DNA of 64,000 bases from a phage: the sequence record PV357171.2; one strand, 5' to 3'. Made by a program: the position numbers and the translations under genes. Positions 2 to 10,721 of the stretch are shown piece after piece; the first letter of the stretch is position 1; each line of letters begins with the position of its first letter. Under the pieces are notes generated by a model, which was given only the letters and a program-made list of their open reading frames with translations, ran no database searches and had not been told where the DNA came from.

Positions 2-295
2 CTAACGACTGACCAATCTTTCAAGATTGCAGGTATTGAATGCGGCGTACACGGTCACAATGGCATTAACGGGAGCCGTGGCAATCCGAAACAATTTAAG
101 AAATTGGGCAAATTAAACACCGGACACACTCATACCGCCAGCATTTACGGCGGCGTTTATACCGCTGGCGTGGCTGGTAGTCTGGATATGGGTTACAACG
201 TTGGCGCGTCAAGCTGGACACAAACGCATTTAATTACCTATGCAAACGGTCAACGCACTTTGATTGACTTTAAAAACGGTAAATTCTTTGCGTAA
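2..295 (+). CDS. C-terminal part of a pre-early protein (A1-like, possible metallophosphoesterase); 5' end outside window
   Basis: Reading frame open from window edge to stop at 293-295; GHxH-like motif (GHTHT); lies upstream of dmp as in T5 pre-early region. Confidence 0.35.
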   Translation, partial: LTTDQSFKIAGIECGVHGHNGINGSRGNPKQFKKLGKLNTGHTHTASIYGGVYTAGVAGSLDMGYNVGASSWTQTHLITYANGQRTLIDFKNGKFFA

Positions 296-351
296 TTAAA
301 TTATTCCCCTAGCGGCTTGAAATATAGCCGCTATTATAGGAGCTAAATTAA

Positions 352-609
352 ATGAAAGTTACATTACCCAAAACATTGGACGAAAAAGTATTTATTTCAC
401 CGGATGAAATGGAATCTGATAAAGTTTACAGCTTCGGGCCTATCCTAGCCGCCAAAACTAATACGGATGGTATTATTTCCGTCGATTCCCGTGATAACGA
501 TATTGTTCCTTTTGATGATGATGGCGCTTTTTATGAGTGGCTAAGCGATAATAATTTACCCGTAAACGGTGAATTAACGCCATACCAGATGCAGATTATT
601 ATCAAATAA
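352..609 (+). CDS. hypothetical pre-early protein (85 aa)
   Basis: ORF track; compact spacing with neighbours. Confidence 0.4.
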   Translation: MKVTLPKTLDEKVFISPDEMESDKVYSFGPILAAKTNTDGIISVDSRDNDIVPFDDDGAFYEWLSDNNLPVNGELTPYQMQIIIK

Positions 610-647
610 ATTAAATCCATTATTAAACTAATTGGAGTTTTATAAAT

Positions 648-1040
648 ATGAAAAAGCAAAATATTCCCTTCGATCGCGCTCAGTCCTCAATTGTTCTGGT
701 TTATTCCAACGGCGAACGTTACCACGTCGAGGCTGGACACGTTATTGATGACCTATTAGATTTCAATGACGCTTTGCAGGTTACTACCTTTGCATATACG
801 CAGGGCAAACTAACCAGCCATATTAAAGCAAAAGGCGTTTATGTTGACACGGTGAAACAAGAAACGATTATCATCGACGCCGTAAAATCCGGCCTAGCCT
901 TTGCAGTTGTCGCGCCTTGCCTCGCTTGCCTTGATGATCAATTGATTAGTGCAAAGGTCTACACATGTGCGGGGATTCGTTCTAGCGTATCCGGTGAGGA
1001 TGTTAGTTTTATCGCTGATGCGTTGGCTTATGGTCTTTAA
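648..1040 (+). CDS. hypothetical pre-early protein (130 aa), possibly A2-like
   Basis: ORF track; size and position relative to A1-like and dmp; no motif recognised. Confidence 0.35.
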   Translation: MKKQNIPFDRAQSSIVLVYSNGERYHVEAGHVIDDLLDFNDALQVTTFAYTQGKLTSHIKAKGVYVDTVKQETIIIDAVKSGLAFAVVAPCLACLDDQLISAKVYTCAGIRSSVSGEDVSFIADALAYGL

Positions 1041-1120: not shown

Positions 1121-1855
1121 ATGAATCAAGTTAAAACGAATATTACCCGTAATTTCCCGCATATTTCCCGCGTCATGATTTGGGATCTTGATGGCACTAT
1201 CGTTAATTCATTCCATCGTGTCGCGCCTTGCTTTGATAGCGACGGGAATTTAAATTTAAATAAGTATAAAAATGAGGCTTGCAAACATGATTTAATAATG
1301 CAAGATACTTTATTGCCTTTGGTGGAATATATGCGCCAATGCATGAATGACGCAAATACTTTAAACATTATTTGCACCGCTCGACTGATGAGCAAATCAG
1401 ACTATTATTATTTGCGTAAACAAGGATTGCGCGGGCGTGGTGATAGTAATATCCGTGTATTTTCCCGCGATACACTGCATAAATATTTTGAGGCTGATAA
1501 GGTTAGCGAAATATACCACAGCAAAGACGCAGTTTATAAATCGTATTATTTTGAGCTATTCAAACAACTATATCCGAACGCTGATTTTACAATGATTGAT
1601 GATCATAAAGGTGTATTATCAGCGGCAGCGTCATACGGATTTAAAACGCTGGACGCGCAAGCCGTTAATGATATTCTATCAATCGGCGTGGCATTGATAG
1701 GCGGAACCTTTATTGATGAATCTCTCGATGATGATAATGATTATCAGTTCCTAGCGGACCGATTGAAATTATGTTGGGAAAGTATGACCGAGGAAGAACG
1801 CGCAGAATATAGTTGCAGCCCGCAACAATATATTGAGAAATTAAAAGTTGCGTAA
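1121..1855 (+). CDS. dmp: 5'-deoxynucleotidase, HAD superfamily (T5 Dmp-like)
   Basis: 244 aa; HAD motif I DxDGT in IWDLDGTIVNS near N-terminus; SD GGAG upstream. Confidence 0.65.
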   Translation: MNQVKTNITRNFPHISRVMIWDLDGTIVNSFHRVAPCFDSDGNLNLNKYKNEACKHDLIMQDTLLPLVEYMRQCMNDANTLNIICTARLMSKSDYYYLRKQGLRGRGDSNIRVFSRDTLHKYFEADKVSEIYHSKDAVYKSYYFELFKQLYPNADFTMIDDHKGVLSAAASYGFKTLDAQAVNDILSIGVALIGGTFIDESLDDDNDYQFLADRLKLCWESMTEEERAEYSCSPQQYIEKLKVA

Positions 1856-1870
1856 TAATTAAAGTTGAAA

Positions 1871-1905
1871 TAGTCACGGTGTGTAATGATAACATGCCGT
1901 GACTA
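1871..1905 (+). other. inverted repeat (9-bp stem TAGTCACGG/CCGTGACTA, ~17-nt loop) downstream of dmp
   Basis: Read directly from sequence; not followed by a clear U-tract. Confidence 0.5.
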
Positions 1906-2017
1906 TTAGCTTGCTAAGTACCGGGCGGTAATGAGACTCATTCTCATCTGGGGGGCCACTGCACCCACCCACGCGTACGTAATCCAAAGAATTTGGCAAA
2001 AGTCATTTTAGTGCTAA

Positions 2018-2557
2018 TTAACTGTTTAATTGGGCAACGTCTGGTATACTTCCTTTGAACATCTCCTGTATTGCAAAGTCACCATGAAATGTCCTTCTTA
2101 GTAAATTTGCATAATTTACGGCATCTTCTAATCCGCTATAGGGAAAGTACTTAGTAGTACCCCTTATCAGCCCCTGTTTATCATGTAATCTTACCATCCA
2201 CTTCTGAAGTTCTTTATGCCATGTAACATTTAGATAGCCTGATGATGCTCTTGAGATTCTGCCATTATGATTATTCTCTGTAATTGAAGCCTCTCTTAAA
2301 TTTGACCATCTATTATTTAGTTTATTCCTATCTATGTGGTCTACACATTCCTCTGGCCATCTATTCTCCATAATAACAAAAGCTACTTGATGTGCATAAG
2401 CTTTAAACCCTCGATACTTAAGCTGCCTATATCCCCTATTTAAAGTACCTGCTTCTTTACCCTTACGATTGCCTCTTTTCCAGGTAAAAACTCCGGTTTC
2501 GGGATCATAAGCAAATACTTCTTGTATTTCCTGTATGTTTAAATTATTCTTCATCAC
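2018..2557 (-). CDS. HNH homing endonuclease
   Basis: N-terminal YDPETGxFxW motif shared with three other ORFs in window; HxDxNxxNNRxxNL HNH core. Confidence 0.7.
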   Translation of the reverse strand: MMKNNLNIQEIQEVFAYDPETGVFTWKRGNRKGKEAGTLNRGYRQLKYRGFKAYAHQVAFVIMENRWPEECVDHIDRNKLNNRWSNLREASITENNHNGRISRASSGYLNVTWHKELQKWMVRLHDKQGLIRGTTKYFPYSGLEDAVNYANLLRRTFHGDFAIQEMFKGSIPDVAQLNS

Positions 2558-2789
2558 TCACCTTTGCCCGAAATCTCTTCCGCGACGCCCGAGATCCATC
2601 CGACCACTCCCGCTCAAACTCCGCACGTTTCTCGTCAAACTTCCGCTCCCTTTCCGCAATCTTCCGCTCCCTTTCCGCAATCTCCCGCGATACTTCCGCA
2701 GTATACTTACGATGCTTGTTAATAGCCGCAGTCATTCCGAAAACTCCCGCAAGTACCCCGATAATAAAAGCAATTATAATACTAAACAT
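2544..2789 (-). CDS. small membrane protein (81 aa), N-terminal TM helix then highly charged ER/K-rich tail
   Basis: Hydrophobic segment FSIIIAFIIGVLAGVFGMTAA; charged repeat REIAERERKIAERERK; overlaps neighbours (coupled chain). Confidence 0.5.
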   Translation of the reverse strand: MFSIIIAFIIGVLAGVFGMTAAINKHRKYTAEVSREIAERERKIAERERKFDEKRAEFEREWSDGSRASRKRFRAKVSDEE

Positions 2790-3080: not shown

Positions 3081-3235
3081 TATTTACGCTCCTCTAATAA
3101 AGTTTCAATTCTAGATAACCTATTACTCAACTGCATTAATTTAACCTCTACTTGGGTTACAGAGGTATCTATTACACGTAAGCCTACAAAGAGAAGTATC
3201 AGTAGGATGAATATGCCAATAATTACCCATTCCAT
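3080..3235 (-). CDS. small single-pass membrane protein (about 51 aa from internal ATG of track ORF 3080..3265)
   Basis: MEWVIIGIFILLILLFVG TM then ...RIETLLEERK tail; start ATG shares one base with upstream stop. Confidence 0.5.
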   Translation of the reverse strand: MEWVIIGIFILLILLFVGLRVIDTSVTQVEVKLMQLSNRLSRIETLLEERK

Positions 3236-5659: not shown

Positions 5660-6142
5660 ATGGCAAATGATGTATTAGTACCAGATCTTATGTCCCCTGA
5701 AGGGATGGATGTAATTGAAGCATATTTACAGTGTGGGAGTGATGTGCCTTCTGCCGCACGTAGTCTTGGAATGTCCGAAATTGCTTTTAGAGATATTATG
5801 AATCGTAGTGAAGTTAAGAACTACTTAAATGATATTTTTATGGAGAGTGGTTTCCGTAACAGAGATCGTTTATTTGGTGTTCTGGATGAAGTTATCAAGC
5901 GTAAACTAGAGGAACTAGAAGAAACTGGCATGGGTTCTGACCAAGATATTATGGATATTCTCTGGAAAGCACATAAAATGAAAATGGAAGAAATGAAAAT
6001 GATGGTAGAACTGGAGAAAGTTAAGGCAGCAGCCCGTACTCCAGCTAACCAGACCAACATCCAGAATAATATTATTGCTGGAGCTGGGGATCAAAACTAC
6101 ATGGACTTAATTACTTCCCTAGCTACTGGAGGTAAGAAGTAA
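5660..6142 (+). CDS. putative terminase small subunit
   Basis: 160 aa, HTH-like N-terminus, immediately upstream of and overlapping the large terminase start. Confidence 0.45.
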
Positions 6143-8494: not shown

Positions 8495-9594
8495 TGGGTT
8501 TTAAAAGCTGGATTACTGAAAAGCTAAATCCGGGTCAACGTATTATAAGAGACATGGAACCAGTTAGTCATCGCACTAACCGTAAGCCTTTTACCACTGG
8601 ACAAGCCTACAGTAAAATTGAGATTCTCAATAGAACTGCTAATATGGTTATAGATAGTGCGGCGGAGTGTTCTTATACTACTCTCTTAAATGTACGACCT
8701 AATCCATTCATGGATATAAGCACATTCCGTAGACTTGTAGTCACTGACCTACTTTTTGAAGGTTGTGCATACATCTATTGGGATGGCACATCGCTTTACC
8801 ATGTCCCTGCTGCACTGATGCAAGTAGAGGCAGATGCCAATAAGTTTATCAAAAAATTTATATTTAATAACCAGATAGACTATCGCGTAGATGAGATTAT
8901 CTTTATAAAAGATAACAGTTACGTGTGTGGCACAAATTCTCAAATTTCTGGACAATCTCGCGTTGCTACTGTTATTGACTCTCTTGAGAAGCGTTCTAAG
9001 ATGCTTAACTTTAAAGAGAAATTCCTCGATAACGGAACTGTGATTGGTCTTATTCTTGAGACGGATGAAATCCTGAACAAGAAATTGCGTGAGCGTAAAC
9101 AAGAAGAATTACAACTAGATTATAATCCTAGTACTGGTCAGTCCTCTGTCCTGATAGACTTTAAGGAAGACATCGAAGGATTTAATAAATCCATCTGTCT
9201 AGCCTTTGGTGTTCCGCAAGTGCTACTTGATGGCGGTAATAATGCGAACATTCGACCAAACATCGAATTGTTCTACTATATGACTATCATTCCTATGCTG
9301 AACAAGCTGACTAGTTCTCTTACTTTCTTTTTTGGTTATAAGATTACTCCTAATACTAAGGAAGTAGCTGCATTAACACCAGATAAAGAAGCTGAGGCTA
9401 AACATTTAACCTCATTGGTTAATAATGGTATTATGACTGGTAACGAGGCTCGTTTAGAGCTGAACCTTGAACCTTTAGATGATGAGCAGATGAATAAGAT
9501 TCGTATTCCTGCTAACGTTGCTGGTTCTGCAACAGGTGTATCTGGTCAAGAAGGTGGTAGACCTCAAGGTTCCACCGAGGGAGATAAAGAATGA
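8494..9594 (+). CDS. portal protein
   Basis: 366 aa; position between terminase and prohead protease; translationally coupled to neighbours. Confidence 0.65.
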   Translation: MGFKSWITEKLNPGQRIIRDMEPVSHRTNRKPFTTGQAYSKIEILNRTANMVIDSAAECSYTTLLNVRPNPFMDISTFRRLVVTDLLFEGCAYIYWDGTSLYHVPAALMQVEADANKFIKKFIFNNQIDYRVDEIIFIKDNSYVCGTNSQISGQSRVATVIDSLEKRSKMLNFKEKFLDNGTVIGLILETDEILNKKLRERKQEELQLDYNPSTGQSSVLIDFKEDIEGFNKSICLAFGVPQVLLDGGNNANIRPNIELFYYMTIIPMLNKLTSSLTFFFGYKITPNTKEVAALTPDKEAEAKHLTSLVNNGIMTGNEARLELNLEPLDDEQMNKIRIPANVAGSATGVSGQEGGRPQGSTEGDKE

Positions 9595-10085
9595 TTGATT
9601 ATAATGGTCTAAAGACCATTTTTGGTGAAAAACTGCCAGAATCTCATATCTTCTTTGCTACGGTTGCTGCGCATAAATATGTTCCTAGCTATGCTTTTCT
9701 GCGTAGAGAACTAGGGCTTTCATCTGCGCATACTAACCGTAAAGTATGGAAGAAATTTGTAGAGGCTTATGGTGAAGCAGTTCCTCCGGCCCCACCGGCC
9801 CCACCATTAACTCTTTCTAAAGATTTAACTGCTAGCATGTCAGTTGAAGAGGGAGCAGCATTAACACTTTCTGTTACTGCAACTGGTGGTACTGGTCCAT
9901 ATACTTATGCATGGACTAAAGATGGTTCTCCTATTCCGGATGCTTCAGGAGCTACCTATACTAAACCTACAGCAGCAGCTGAGGATGCCGGCTCTTATAA
10001 AGTAACTGTAACAGATAGTAAGCAAGTAAGTAAGGATTCTACTGCATGTGCTGTGACAGTTAATCCTACTGTTCCTGGAGGCTAA
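9591..10085 (+). CDS. capsid decoration protein with C-terminal Ig-like domain (pb10-like)
   Basis: 164 aa; PPAPPAPP linker then Ig-like segment YTYAWTKDG...SYKVTVTD. Confidence 0.55.
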   Translation: MIDYNGLKTIFGEKLPESHIFFATVAAHKYVPSYAFLRRELGLSSAHTNRKVWKKFVEAYGEAVPPAPPAPPLTLSKDLTASMSVEEGAALTLSVTATGGTGPYTYAWTKDGSPIPDASGATYTKPTAAAEDAGSYKVTVTDSKQVSKDSTACAVTVNPTVPGG

Positions 10086-10088
10086 TAA

Positions 10089-10721
10089 ATGACACAAGCT
10101 GCTATTGACTATAACAAGTTAAAATCAGCACCCGTTCATTTAGATGCTTATATTAAATCTATTGATAGCGAATCCAAAGAGGGCGTTGTAAAAATCCGTG
10201 GATTCGCTAATACAATTAGTAAAGATCGCGCTGGTGATGTAATTCCTGCTTCTGCGTGGAAAACATCTAATGCACTTGCTAACTATATGAAAAACCCGAT
10301 TATTCTTTTCGGACACGATCATCGTCGTCCAATCGGCAAGTGTATTGATCTTAACCCTACTGAAATGGGTCTCGAAATCGAATGCGAGATCTATGAAAGT
10401 TCTGACCCGGCTATCTTTTCTCTAATTAAAAACGGTGTACTGAAAACTTTTAGTATCGGATTCCGCTGCCTAGATGCAGAGTGGGATGAAGCTACTGATA
10501 TATTTATTATTAAAGATTTAGAACTATACGAAGTTTCGGTAGTTTCTGTACCTTGTAATCAGGACTCAACGTTCAATCTCGCTAAGAGTATGAATGGTCA
10601 TGATTATACTGAATGGCGTAAATCTTTTACTGCAATAAGTTCTAAAGCTGTCCCAGCTCAAGAACGTAATCTTTCTGAACTAGAAAAACTTGCGATAGCT
10701 TTAGGCTACGTTAAAGAATAA
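10089..10721 (+). CDS. prohead maturation protease (HK97 family)
   Basis: 210 aa; position before major capsid gene; conserved His-containing segment FGHDHRRPIG. Confidence 0.7.
   Translation: MTQAAIDYNKLKSAPVHLDAYIKSIDSESKEGVVKIRGFANTISKDRAGDVIPASAWKTSNALANYMKNPIILFGHDHRRPIGKCIDLNPTEMGLEIECEIYESSDPAIFSLIKNGVLKTFSIGFRCLDAEWDEATDIFIIKDLELYEVSVVSVPCNQDSTFNLAKSMNGHDYTEWRKSFTAISSKAVPAQERNLSELEKLAIALGYVKE

What the first reader, a model, noticed from the sequence alone, without database searches (positions are those of the whole stretch)
1856..2017. GC-rich ORF-free segment with a long-loop inverted repeat downstream of dmp
Between the dmp stop and the HNH gene there is a 9-bp-stem inverted repeat (1871..1905) followed by an unusually GC-rich stretch (…CTGGGGGGCCACTGCACCCACCCACGCGTACG…). 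In T5 dmp lies at the edge of the long terminal repeat, so this segment could coincide with the terminal-repeat boundary. This is inference from synteny only.
Basis: inference. Interest (0 to 1): 0.4.

Follow-up and report, generated by a model that had tools for sequence, protein, structure and literature searches.

The report
T5-type terminal repeat boundary element
The segment is where the long terminal repeat of a T5-like phage genome ends; it holds a terminator-like hairpin and a 23-base motif, conserved across the whole phage family, that probably tells the packaging enzyme where to cut.

Summary
An inverted repeat lies at 1869-1907 (11 perfect pairs, 15 with G·U, loop 9, so not "long-loop"). 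A 63% GC stretch follows at 1921-1980, in the top 0.02% of 60-nt windows. No conserved ORF is present.

The window is a Tequintavirus read in reverse T5 orientation. dmp is the outermost gene of the T5 terminal repeat. The deposited left ends of T5, BF23 and Stitch align to window 1964|1965 or 1965|1966, inside the GC-rich run. No read data exist for this phage.

- **Hairpin:** it is kept through compensatory changes and replaced by unrelated hairpins in other genera. One T5 record already annotates it as a putative rho-independent terminator.
- **New here:** the box GGCGGTAATGAGACTCATTCTCA (1924-1946) is exactly conserved in 61 further IMG/VR stretches whose flanks (±75 nt) show no resemblance to T5. 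It always lies between dmp and terS and always points toward terS. The mapped ends fall 26-27 nt beyond its GACT core, and a second conserved block lies on the unique side.
- **Best reading:** a cis-acting end-forming (terminase) site. This is inferred, not shown.
- **Against:** T5 has an identical TerS over the 139 of 160 residues compared but a different box allele.

The parts
1121..1855 (+). dmp (deoxynucleoside-5'-monophosphatase), the outermost gene of the terminal repeat, transcribed toward the repeat end.
   Evidence: ORF. The protein is 95-96% identical to the copy in T5 and its close relatives. Annotated as dmp in relatives.
1869..1907 (+). Hairpin 1. Arms 1869-1883 and 1893-1907 (11 perfect pairs plus 4 more, two of them G·U on the + strand), loop 1884-1892. 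Terminator-like 3'-end hairpin of the dmp transcript.
   Evidence: Covariation: 100% of cells paired and 3 pairs with changes on both sides in 10 type-A sequences. The T5-type allele at the same place has 96.5% paired and 3 pairs with double changes. Unrelated hairpins occupy the same spot in Sugarland, DU_PP_V and Vibrio phi3. T5 record AY587007 annotates the homologous position (69..105) as a putative rho-independent terminator.
1924..1946 (+). Conserved box GGCGGTAATGAGACTCATTCTCA (GACT core at 1935-1938; internal palindrome AATGAG-A-CTCATT). Candidate recognition site for the end-forming enzyme.
   Evidence: Exact matches in 82 IMG/VR stretches. After setting aside close T5 relatives (19 of the 80 loci analysed), 61 remain, and their flanks within 75 nt show no resemblance to T5. 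It occurs once in the 64-kb window and in 1 contig among 185,579 species' genomes. It is more conserved than dmp third-codon positions.
1947..1969 (.). GC-rich spacer TCTGGGGGGCCACTGCACCCACC. It holds the inferred left physical end, which is also the inner edge of the right repeat copy.
   Evidence: The spacer varies in sequence but is GC-rich in all relatives and often palindromic in the environmental contigs.
1964..1966 (.). Inferred terminal-repeat boundary: 1964|1965 (BF23, Stitch, MM-1, NBEco type) or 1965|1966 (T5 type), 26-27 nt 3' of the GACT core.
   Evidence: Alignment of deposited genome ends. Coordinates were checked.
1970..1985 (+). Second semi-conserved block CACGCGTACGTAATCC on the unique side of the boundary. 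T5 has CATGTGTAATCTT and the environmental contigs have CACGTACAACTT.
   Evidence: conserved columns 57-70 of alignment A3.
1986..2017 (.). Unique-side flank. TTAGTGCTAA at 2008-2017 is a relic of the 3' end of the T5.162-like gene, as it stands in relatives that lack the HNH insert.
   Evidence: Compare TTAGCGCATAG in T5, K37 and chee24.
2018..2557 (-). HNH homing-endonuclease gene inserted just outside the repeat boundary. It is not part of the boundary element.
   Evidence: Pfam HNH_3, E = 7.5e-12. Absent at this spot from T5, K37, chee24 and MM-1. Present in L008 and L010, with other inserts at the same spot in L007, L011, L012, L017, L032 and L036.
5660..6142 (+). terS (small terminase subunit), followed by terL. 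These are the genes that accompany the box throughout the family.
   Evidence: Annotated as terminase small subunit in relatives. A terS homologue lies downstream of the box on the same strand in 48 of 48 more distant loci where one was found.

Best explanation
Window 1856-2017 is the junction between the roughly 10-kb direct terminal repeat of a T5-like phage and its unique late region. The repeat is the pre-early, first-step-transfer DNA, and dmp is its last gene. The segment has three functional layers.

1. Hairpin (1869-1907). It starts 14 nt after the dmp stop and is held by selection for pairing. It most likely forms in the dmp-sense RNA as the 3'-end, terminator-like hairpin of the pre-early transcript. 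It may also stop convergent transcripts arriving from the unique side.
2. Conserved box (1924-1946). This invariant 23-nt sequence is the likely protein-recognition part of the site.
3. GC-rich spacer and second block. The double-strand end is made in the spacer 26-27 nt beyond the GACT core (window 1964-1966). A second conserved block (1970-1985) lies on the far side of the cut.

Because conserved sequence lies on both sides of the cut, the site must be read on concatemeric DNA or on the right-repeat junction. The terminase, or a nuclease working with it, then cuts at a fixed distance to create the left genome end, the end that enters the host first.

What is shown: the anatomy, the conservation, the synteny and the position of ends deposited for relatives. 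What is inferred: which protein binds, that the cut is measured from the box, and where the boundary lies in this particular phage.

The confidence of 0.6 is a blend: about 0.9 that the repeat boundary lies in this segment, and about 0.5 that the box is the recognition site of the end-forming enzyme.
For: Boundary
- T5, BF23, Stitch, MM-1 and about eight other deposited genomes end within 2 nt of the same homologous position.
- Methods for BF23 and Stitch were read-based.
- The distance from GACT to the end is 26-27 nt in T5, BF23, Stitch, Sugarland and DU_PP_V, and the same in the window by alignment.

Hairpin
- Covariation is shown, and hairpins of unrelated sequence sit at the same place in other genera.
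- Every single-sided change gives G·U on the + strand. There are 18 such cells in type A and 14 in type B, from about 7 independent events. None gives A·C.
- The + strand folds better than the - strand (-39.9 against -32.9 kcal/mol).
- T5 record AY587007 annotates the homologous position as a putative terminator.

Box
- The exact 23-mer occurs in 82 IMG/VR stretches. In 61 loci that are not close T5 relatives, TerL is 39-61% and dmp 28-53% identical to the window's proteins.
- terS lies downstream on the same strand in 48 of 48 loci, within 1 kb in 23. dmp lies upstream in 42 of 42, in either orientation. The box therefore tracks terS and the boundary, not dmp transcription.
- No RNA structure is supported, only an invariant mini-palindrome, and there is no Rfam or tRNA match.
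- The box is absent from bacterial genomes except one MAG contig.
- Non-coding identity exceeds that of dmp third-codon positions.
- The right-end junction 20-mer occurs only in T5-like isolate genomes. The left element is the conserved one.
Against: - There are no reads, coverage or end-mapping data for this phage. The boundary is placed by homology alone.
- Some deposited ends were set by synteny with T5 rather than measured. Sugarland says so, DU_PP_V is deposited as circular, and several others are undocumented.
- Other annotations differ: K37 by PhageTerm is 15 nt further in, phiR2-01 by coverage is 39 nt past the dmp stop, chee24 is 16 nt past it, and the Vibrio phi3 end is about 12 nt further out relative to the second block.
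- T5 carries a diverged box allele (GGCGGTTAGCAGACTAAGTATTT, 13 of 23 positions shared), yet its TerS is 139/139 identical to the window's over the part compared.
- The hairpin has no U-tract on the + strand, and the consensus terminator scan listed it on neither strand.
- The 82 exact hits were found by searching for the exact motif. How many family members lack it is unknown.
Confidence: 0.6

Rival explanations
1. The conserved box is a binding site for some other protein rather than the terminase. Candidates are a factor that protects or anchors the leading DNA end, the factor that acts at the injection-stop signal (iss), or a host Fur-like repressor.
For: - The box lies inside the repeat, 18-19 nt from the mature left end, which is the first DNA to enter the cell.
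- The 13-mer AATGAGAMTCATT (at most 1 mismatch) occurs in the K37 repeat only at the box and as 4 copies at 9265-9370. T5 has 4 copies at record 9587-9709, inside the annotated iss region. Chance expectation is 0.09 per 10 kb.
- Many environmental contigs carry AATGATAATCATT-type palindromes 5-10 nt upstream of the box.
- The box matches the Fur consensus GATAATGATAATCATTATC, recalled from my own knowledge, at 15 of 19 positions.
- The box allele does not covary with TerS.
Against: - Conserved sequence continues across the cut into the unique side, which a protein bound to the mature end does not need.
- Orientation toward terS is strict, 48 of 48.
- The non-Fur positions are invariant.
- T5 keeps the iss copies yet has the other box allele at its left end.
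Confidence: 0.2
2. The segment is only a transcription-termination region for convergent transcripts: dmp from one side, T5.162/HNH from the other. On this view the GC-rich stretch has no function of its own.
For: Hairpin covariation. The AY587007 terminator annotation. A T-rich tail on the minus strand (ATTTCAACTTTAATTATT).
Against: - The box and second block are conserved far beyond the hairpin and beyond coding sequence.
- They are kept where dmp is inverted or up to about 1.7 kb away.
- There is no U-tract on the + strand, and the scan reports no terminator here.
- Genome ends map in the GC stretch.
Confidence: 0.08
3. The region encodes a small structured RNA or a short protein.
For: The fold is significantly stable on both strands (z = -3.8 and -3.4). 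A 41-aa minus-strand ORF is present.
Against: - No Rfam match better than E = 0.33 in 1600-2300, and all matches are far below gathering scores. No tRNA.
- RNAalifold on 38 diverse elements finds only 6 invariant pairs and no covariation.
- The ORF is broken in relatives.
- The mapped genome end would cut any such gene in the left repeat copy.
Confidence: 0.03
4. The GC-rich stretch is the recognition or insertion site, or a scar, of the adjacent HNH homing endonuclease.
For: The HNH gene starts 52 nt away. This spot is an insertion hot spot holding different inserts in different relatives.
Against: The same GC-rich sequence, box and boundary are present in T5, K37, chee24, MM-1 and the environmental contigs, all of which lack this HNH gene.
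Confidence: 0.02

Closest known systems
Left end of the terminal repeat of phage T5 (NC_005859 / AY543070 / AY587007, bases 1-123), including the 'putative rho-independent terminator' annotated at 69..105 in AY587007.
   Same: The gene order is the same (A1, two small genes, dmp, end). A hairpin follows about 14 nt after the dmp stop. The layout is the same: hairpin, TTAGC, box, GC-rich run, end. The unique-side flank (CAYGTGTAATC...) is homologous. TerS is identical over the 139 of 160 residues compared.
   Different: The window carries the other allele of both the hairpin (TAGTCACGG... against TTGTTTCACCC...) and the box (GGCGGTAATGAGACT... against GGCGGTTAGCAGACT...). It also has an HNH gene inserted 52 nt beyond the boundary.
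Phage lambda cos (cosQ-cosN-cosB), from my own knowledge: a composite terminase site with a binding part and a separate nicking part.
   Same: It is a composite cis site near the terminase genes. A conserved recognition block stands beside the place where the end is made, and sequence is needed on both sides of the cut. These points are inferred from conservation.
   Different: Here the product is a long direct terminal repeat, not a cohesive end. The same site must be passed once without cutting, or the repeat must be duplicated. No binding or cleavage data exist. In coliphage T5 relatives the site is 3.7 kb from terS.
T7/T3 concatemer-junction processing of direct terminal repeats, from my own knowledge.
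   Same: Both have unique genome ends with direct terminal repeats, and the left end enters the cell first. An inverted repeat lies close to the repeat boundary.
   Different: The repeat is about 10 kb rather than about 0.16-0.23 kb. No sequence similarity was seen. A role for the hairpin in repeat duplication is not supported here, because its wobble pattern points to RNA.
Repeats of the T5 injection-stop-signal (iss) region (misc_feature 9140..10149 in NC_005859; Davison, bioRxiv 10.1101/866236).
   Same: The iss region holds four copies of AATGAGAATCATT, one mismatch from the box palindrome AATGAGACTCATT.
   Different: The iss copies lie 500-600 bp from the other end of the repeat and lack the GGCGG and TCTCA flanks. 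T5 keeps them while carrying the variant box at its left end.

Membership tests
T5-type long direct terminal repeat boundary (left end of LTR, inner edge of RTR) | dmp is the outermost gene of the repeat and is transcribed toward the end. Unique late genes (T5.159-162, llp, oad, terS, terL) lie on the other side. | tested here: met
   paper 10.1101/866236.
T5-type long direct terminal repeat boundary (left end of LTR, inner edge of RTR) | The sequence is homologous to mapped physical ends of relatives. | tested here: met
   The ends of T5, BF23, Stitch, MM-1 and NBEco-type records align to window 1964-1966.
T5-type long direct terminal repeat boundary (left end of LTR, inner edge of RTR) | In this genome, the dmp side is present twice and the other side once. 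This would show as a two-fold coverage step and a pile-up of read starts. | not testable with these tools
   The window is 64 kb of assembled sequence and the other repeat copy lies outside it. No reads are available.
Intrinsic (rho-independent) terminator | A stable stem-loop at the 3' end of a transcription unit, maintained by selection. | tested here: met
   The hairpin starts 14 nt after the dmp stop. It has 15 pairs and shows compensatory changes.
Intrinsic (rho-independent) terminator | A U-tract directly 3' of the stem. | tested here: not met
   The + strand tail is TAGCTTGC and the - strand tail is TTCAACTTTAATT, with 4 T in the best window of 8. The consensus scan lists the hairpin on neither strand.
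Terminase recognition/cleavage site (pac/cos-like) | A genome end is formed at or next to the site. | tested here: met
   Met by homology only. Ends lie 26-27 nt from the GACT core in five relatives.
Terminase recognition/cleavage site (pac/cos-like) | Linkage to the terminase genes. | tested here: met
   terS lies downstream on the same strand in 48 of 48 distant loci, and 121-927 nt away in 23 of them. In the window the distance is 3.7 kb.
Terminase recognition/cleavage site (pac/cos-like) | The site covaries with the DNA-recognition subunit (TerS). | tested here: not met
   T5 TerS is 139/139 identical to the window's over the part compared, yet the box alleles differ at 10 of 23 positions.
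Terminase recognition/cleavage site (pac/cos-like) | Terminase binds and cuts the site, and the site is needed in cis for packaging. | not testable with these tools
   This needs biochemistry or genetics.
Described structured RNA family (Rfam) or tRNA | A match to a covariance model, or a conserved covarying structure in the box region. | tested here: not met
Fur box | A match to the 19-bp consensus GATAATGATAATCATTATC (recalled from my own knowledge) and binding by Fur. | tested here: inconclusive
   GGTAATGAGACTCATTCTC matches 15 of 19 positions by eye. The non-consensus positions are invariant across the family. The exact 23-mer is absent from bacterial genomes. Binding was not tested.

The most novel reading that the evidence does not exclude
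The box is one member of a family of AATGAGAMTCATT-type sites that mark both extremities of the terminal repeat. One copy lies 18-19 nt from the left end and a cluster lies in the injection-stop region near the right end. On this reading a single DNA-binding factor, phage or host (possibly Fur-like), would couple end formation during packaging with the two-step DNA injection that defines T5-like phages.
Probability: 0.12. Interest if true: 0.75.

Novelty: new member of a known kind. Interest (0 to 1): 0.42.

Why it matters
- **Practical use.** T5-like genomes are routinely mis-assembled or opened at arbitrary points because their ~10-kb repeats collapse. Deposited repeat boundaries for close relatives differ by up to about 95 nt here. 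A sequence landmark, the 23-nt box with the end 26-27 nt beyond GACT, would let annotators place the left end without read data.
- **Biology.** I found no description of this motif: literal searches for the sequence returned nothing in the held library. I know of no defined terminase recognition signal for T5. A conserved, oriented, terS-linked element that straddles the cut is a concrete candidate for one.
- **What it makes testable.** The candidate opens two questions to experiment: how the terminal repeat ends are cut, and whether the cut is measured from a recognition site.

Tried and rejected
- **Known RNA.** An Rfam scan of 1600-2300 at E up to 10 returned only chance-level matches, and ARAGORN found no tRNA.
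- **Terminator scan.** The hairpin was not listed on either strand.
- **Structured RNA in the box region.** RNAalifold on 38 diverse elements gave no covariation.
- **Coding potential.** The minus-strand 41-aa ORF is not conserved.
- **Shared motif at both repeat ends.** The T5, BF23 and MM-1 right ends (...TGTGGMTC|TAAAAACTCAGGC) show no convincing similarity to the left element. The right-end 20-mer occurs only in T5-like isolate genomes.
- **TerS covariation with the box allele.** Not found.
- **Host copies of the box.** There is one MAG contig only, so no evidence for a host regulatory site or for satellites carrying the signal.
- **Spacer palindromes as the cut site.** Enrichment is modest (mean best arm 4.2 against 3.1 in shuffles). 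The centres lie about 8-12 nt after the box, not at the mapped end 18-19 nt after it.
- **Literature.** The Davison 2015 review could not be retrieved. Searches for work on T5 termini or a packaging signal found nothing specific.
- **Correction.** My first coordinate estimate of the boundary (1966|1967, notebook entry 1) was wrong by 1-2 nt and was corrected.

Full report
**1. What the window is**

The first 6 kb match 473 phage records, nearly all T5-like (Tequintavirus and relatives), at 87-94% identity. The gene order on the + strand is:
- the 3' end of A1;
- two small genes;
- dmp (1121-1855);
- the intergenic segment 1856-2017;
- on the minus strand, an HNH gene (2018-2557; Pfam HNH_3, E = 7.5e-12), a T5.162-like membrane protein, small membrane proteins and the llp lipoprotein;
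- on the + strand, oad/pb5, terS and terL.

This is the T5 map read in reverse, across the junction between the terminal repeat and the unique late region.

**2. The observation**

The inverted repeat and the GC-rich run are both real.
- The perfect arms are 11 bp (1869-1879 / 1897-1907), not 9.
- On the + strand the stem extends to 15 pairs with two G·U, leaving a 9-nt loop rather than a long one.
- A perfect stem of at least 11 bp occurs in 0.8% of 162-nt windows of this genome.
- 1921-1980 is 63% GC against a 39% background, in the top 0.02% of 60-nt windows.
- The only ORF, 41 aa on the minus strand, is broken in relatives.

**3. The terminal-repeat boundary**

In all four T5 records dmp is the first gene (124..858, minus strand). 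The left repeat begins at base 1, 123 nt beyond the dmp stop. In window orientation T5 reads ...GGAGGCAGTGGACA| at the physical end. At the right-repeat junction it reads ...GTGGACA|CACCTTCATGTGTAATC....

| Phage | Method | End as deposited | Window equivalent |
|---|---|---|---|
| T5 | not retrieved | ...GTGGACA\| | 1965\|1966 |
| BF23 | PhageTerm on a ligation library (PMC10644984) | ...GCAGTGAGC\| | 1964\|1965 |
| Stitch | PAUSE on raw reads (PMC4319617) | ...CCTCTGGGC\| | 1964\|1965 |
| MM-1 | not documented | ...CCACTGGAC\| | 1964\|1965 |
| Four NBEco/NBSal-type records | not documented | ...CCACTGGAC\| | 1964\|1965 |
| K37 | PhageTerm | CATCT\|GGGGGG | 1949\|1950 |
| phiR2-01 | read coverage | 39 nt after the dmp stop | about 1894 |
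| chee24 | not stated | 16 nt after the dmp stop | 1871\|1872 |

The window reads GGGGGGCCACTGCAC|C|CACC at this place (coordinates checked).

**4. The hairpin**

Relatives carry one of two unrelated hairpin sequences at the same place. Type A is the window's; type B is T5's.
- Type A: all 150 cells pair, and 3 of 15 pairs show changes on both sides (A-U to C-G, G-C to A-U, G-C to C-G).
- Type B: 96.5% of cells pair, again with 3 pairs changed on both sides.
- Slid controls fall to 20-50% pairing in both types.
- Sugarland, Pectobacterium phage DU_PP_V and Vibrio phage phi3 have yet other perfect hairpins between the dmp stop and the end.

All single-sided changes give G·U on the dmp-sense strand and none gives A·C. 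The + strand also folds better than the - strand. This points to the dmp-sense RNA as the selected molecule, although it rests on only about seven independent events.

There is no U-tract on that strand. The minus strand has a T-rich tail, and AY587007 annotates the T5 hairpin as a putative rho-independent terminator on that strand. I read it as a terminator-like or 3'-protective hairpin, possibly working in both directions.

The loop is flipped in MM-1 relative to T5 (TTAAAATGG against CCATTTTAA) and nearly so in L038 relative to the window. Loop sequence therefore does not matter.

**5. The conserved box**

Between the hairpin and the end lies GGCGGTAATGAGACTCATTCTCA (1924-1946). The same sequence is present in Stitch, DU_PP_V (dmp protein 53% identical) and Vibrio phi3 (45% identical).

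An exact-pattern scan of IMG/VR returned 82 stretches. Of the 80 loci analysed, 19 are close T5 relatives. Most of the remaining 61 are metagenome contigs, and their flanks within 75 nt show no resemblance to T5. All share one layout:
- a G-run;
- the box;
- T(T/C)T;
- a 14-18-nt very GC-rich spacer, often palindromic;
- a C-run;
- a second block, CACGTAC(A/T)ACTT. T5 has CATGTGTAATCTT and the window has CACGCGTACGTAATCC.

In the distant loci TerL is 39-61% and dmp 28-53% identical to the window's proteins. terS lies downstream on the same strand in 48 of 48 cases, 121-927 nt away in 23 of them. dmp lies upstream in all 42 cases where it was found, but on either strand (30 minus, 12 plus). The box therefore tracks the dmp|terS junction and the orientation of terS, not dmp transcription.

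Other properties of the box:
- It occurs once in the 64-kb window and in a single MAG contig among 185,579 species' genomes.
- RNAalifold finds no covarying structure in it.
- Among type-A relatives the non-coding repeat end is 71-93% identical to the window, against 67-82% at dmp third-codon positions. It exceeds the third-position figure in all six comparisons.
- The GACT core lies 26-27 nt from the deposited end in T5, BF23, Stitch, Sugarland and DU_PP_V. Only the first three ends are documented as measured or independently sequenced.
- By contrast, the right-end junction sequence is conserved only among T5-like isolate genomes.

**6. Mechanism**

Conserved blocks on both sides of the mapped cut imply that the unit is read where the sequence is continuous, on concatemers or at the right-repeat junction. 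Linkage and fixed orientation relative to terS-terL are what one expects of a terminase recognition site. The fixed GACT-to-end distance suggests a cut measured from the box into a sequence-tolerant GC-rich spacer.

I therefore propose that 1924-1985 is the left-end-forming (terminase) site of this phage family, with the hairpin as a separate transcriptional element.

The weak points are these:
- No binding data exist.
- T5 carries a diverged box allele (13 of 23 positions shared) with an identical TerS over the part compared.
- Deposited ends disagree, and some are not independent measurements.

**7. Rivals**

- A different binding protein remains possible. Box-like 13-mers (AATGAGAMTCATT) cluster only at the box and in the injection-stop region at the other end of the repeat. 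Fur-box-like palindromes sit just upstream of the box in many environmental contigs.
- A pure terminator reading does not explain conservation of the box where dmp is inverted.
- The ncRNA, ORF and HNH-target readings each failed their tests.

**8. Novelty**

The boundary and the hairpin are known features of T5, so the window's copy is a new member of a known kind. I found no description of the family-wide box: literal sequence searches of the held library returned nothing. That library is incomplete, and the key 2005 and 2015 T5 papers were not readable.

Noticed in passing
window 2018-2557 (minus strand); compare L007, L008, L010, L011, L012, L017, L024, L032, L036 downstream of position 3233: The spot just outside the repeat boundary, at the 3' end of the T5.162-like gene, is an insertion hot spot. 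The window, L008 and L010 carry this HNH_3 gene. Other relatives carry different inserts at the same point, and T5, K37, chee24 and MM-1 carry none. The insert overlaps and rewrites the C-terminus of the T5.162-like ORF (2544-2789).
   Followed up: partly
L001 (MM-1) about 2870-2910 against L025 (T5); L038 against window 1884-1892: The hairpin loop is inverted between close relatives (TTAAAATGG in T5, CCATTTTAA in MM-1; TAATGATAA in the window, TTATCATCA in L038). The stem is kept, as if the palindrome flips by recombination or template switching.
   Followed up: partly
L006 1088-1210 (T5 record 9587-9709); L050 9265-9370 (K37): Four copies of AATGAGAATCATT, one mismatch from the box palindrome, cluster in the injection-stop (iss) region near the other end of the repeat. 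That is close to the estimated first-step-transfer shear point of about 9618 bp (bioRxiv 10.1101/866236). Chance expectation is 0.09 per 10 kb.
   Followed up: partly
L059, L060, L070, L073, L082, L096, L108, L136: 5-40 nt upstream of the box: Many environmental contigs have Fur-box-like palindromes (AATGATAATCATT, GCGAATGATTCGC) directly upstream of the box. The box itself matches the Fur consensus at 15 of 19 positions.
   Followed up: no
window 2636-2688: A 21-nt tandem duplication (2.5 copies, 93% match) inside the T5.162-like gene repeats the peptide motif AERERKI. K37 and chee24 have a single copy.
   Followed up: partly
L021 / L117 (Phage NBEco002, right-repeat junction): This record has an extra C exactly at the boundary (CCACTGGAC-C-ACACC against CCACTGGACACACC in relatives). 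It could be an artefact of joining the duplicated repeat by hand, or a real end-related variant.
   Followed up: no
Records MF431730 (chee24), HE956708 (phiR2-01), OQ291034 (K37), NC_042093 (Sugarland): Deposited repeat boundaries of close relatives differ by up to about 95 nt (16, 39, 94 and 109-123 nt after the dmp stop). K37's right boundary is also 29 nt inside that of T5, BF23 and MM-1. Sugarland's start was set by synteny, not measured.
   Followed up: yes
L142 (JBMYRF010000105.1, Rubripirellula sp. MAG, 3047 nt) 2804-2826: This is the only bacterial-genome hit to the box. It is a 3-kb contig in a planctomycete MAG and is probably a mis-binned phage contig.
   Followed up: no
window 1856-2017 and homologues in the 'phages' collection: The whole segment occurs in 214 phage records. 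Most leave it unannotated, and several annotate a 'hypothetical protein' or 'membrane protein' over it, which is probably spurious.
   Followed up: partly
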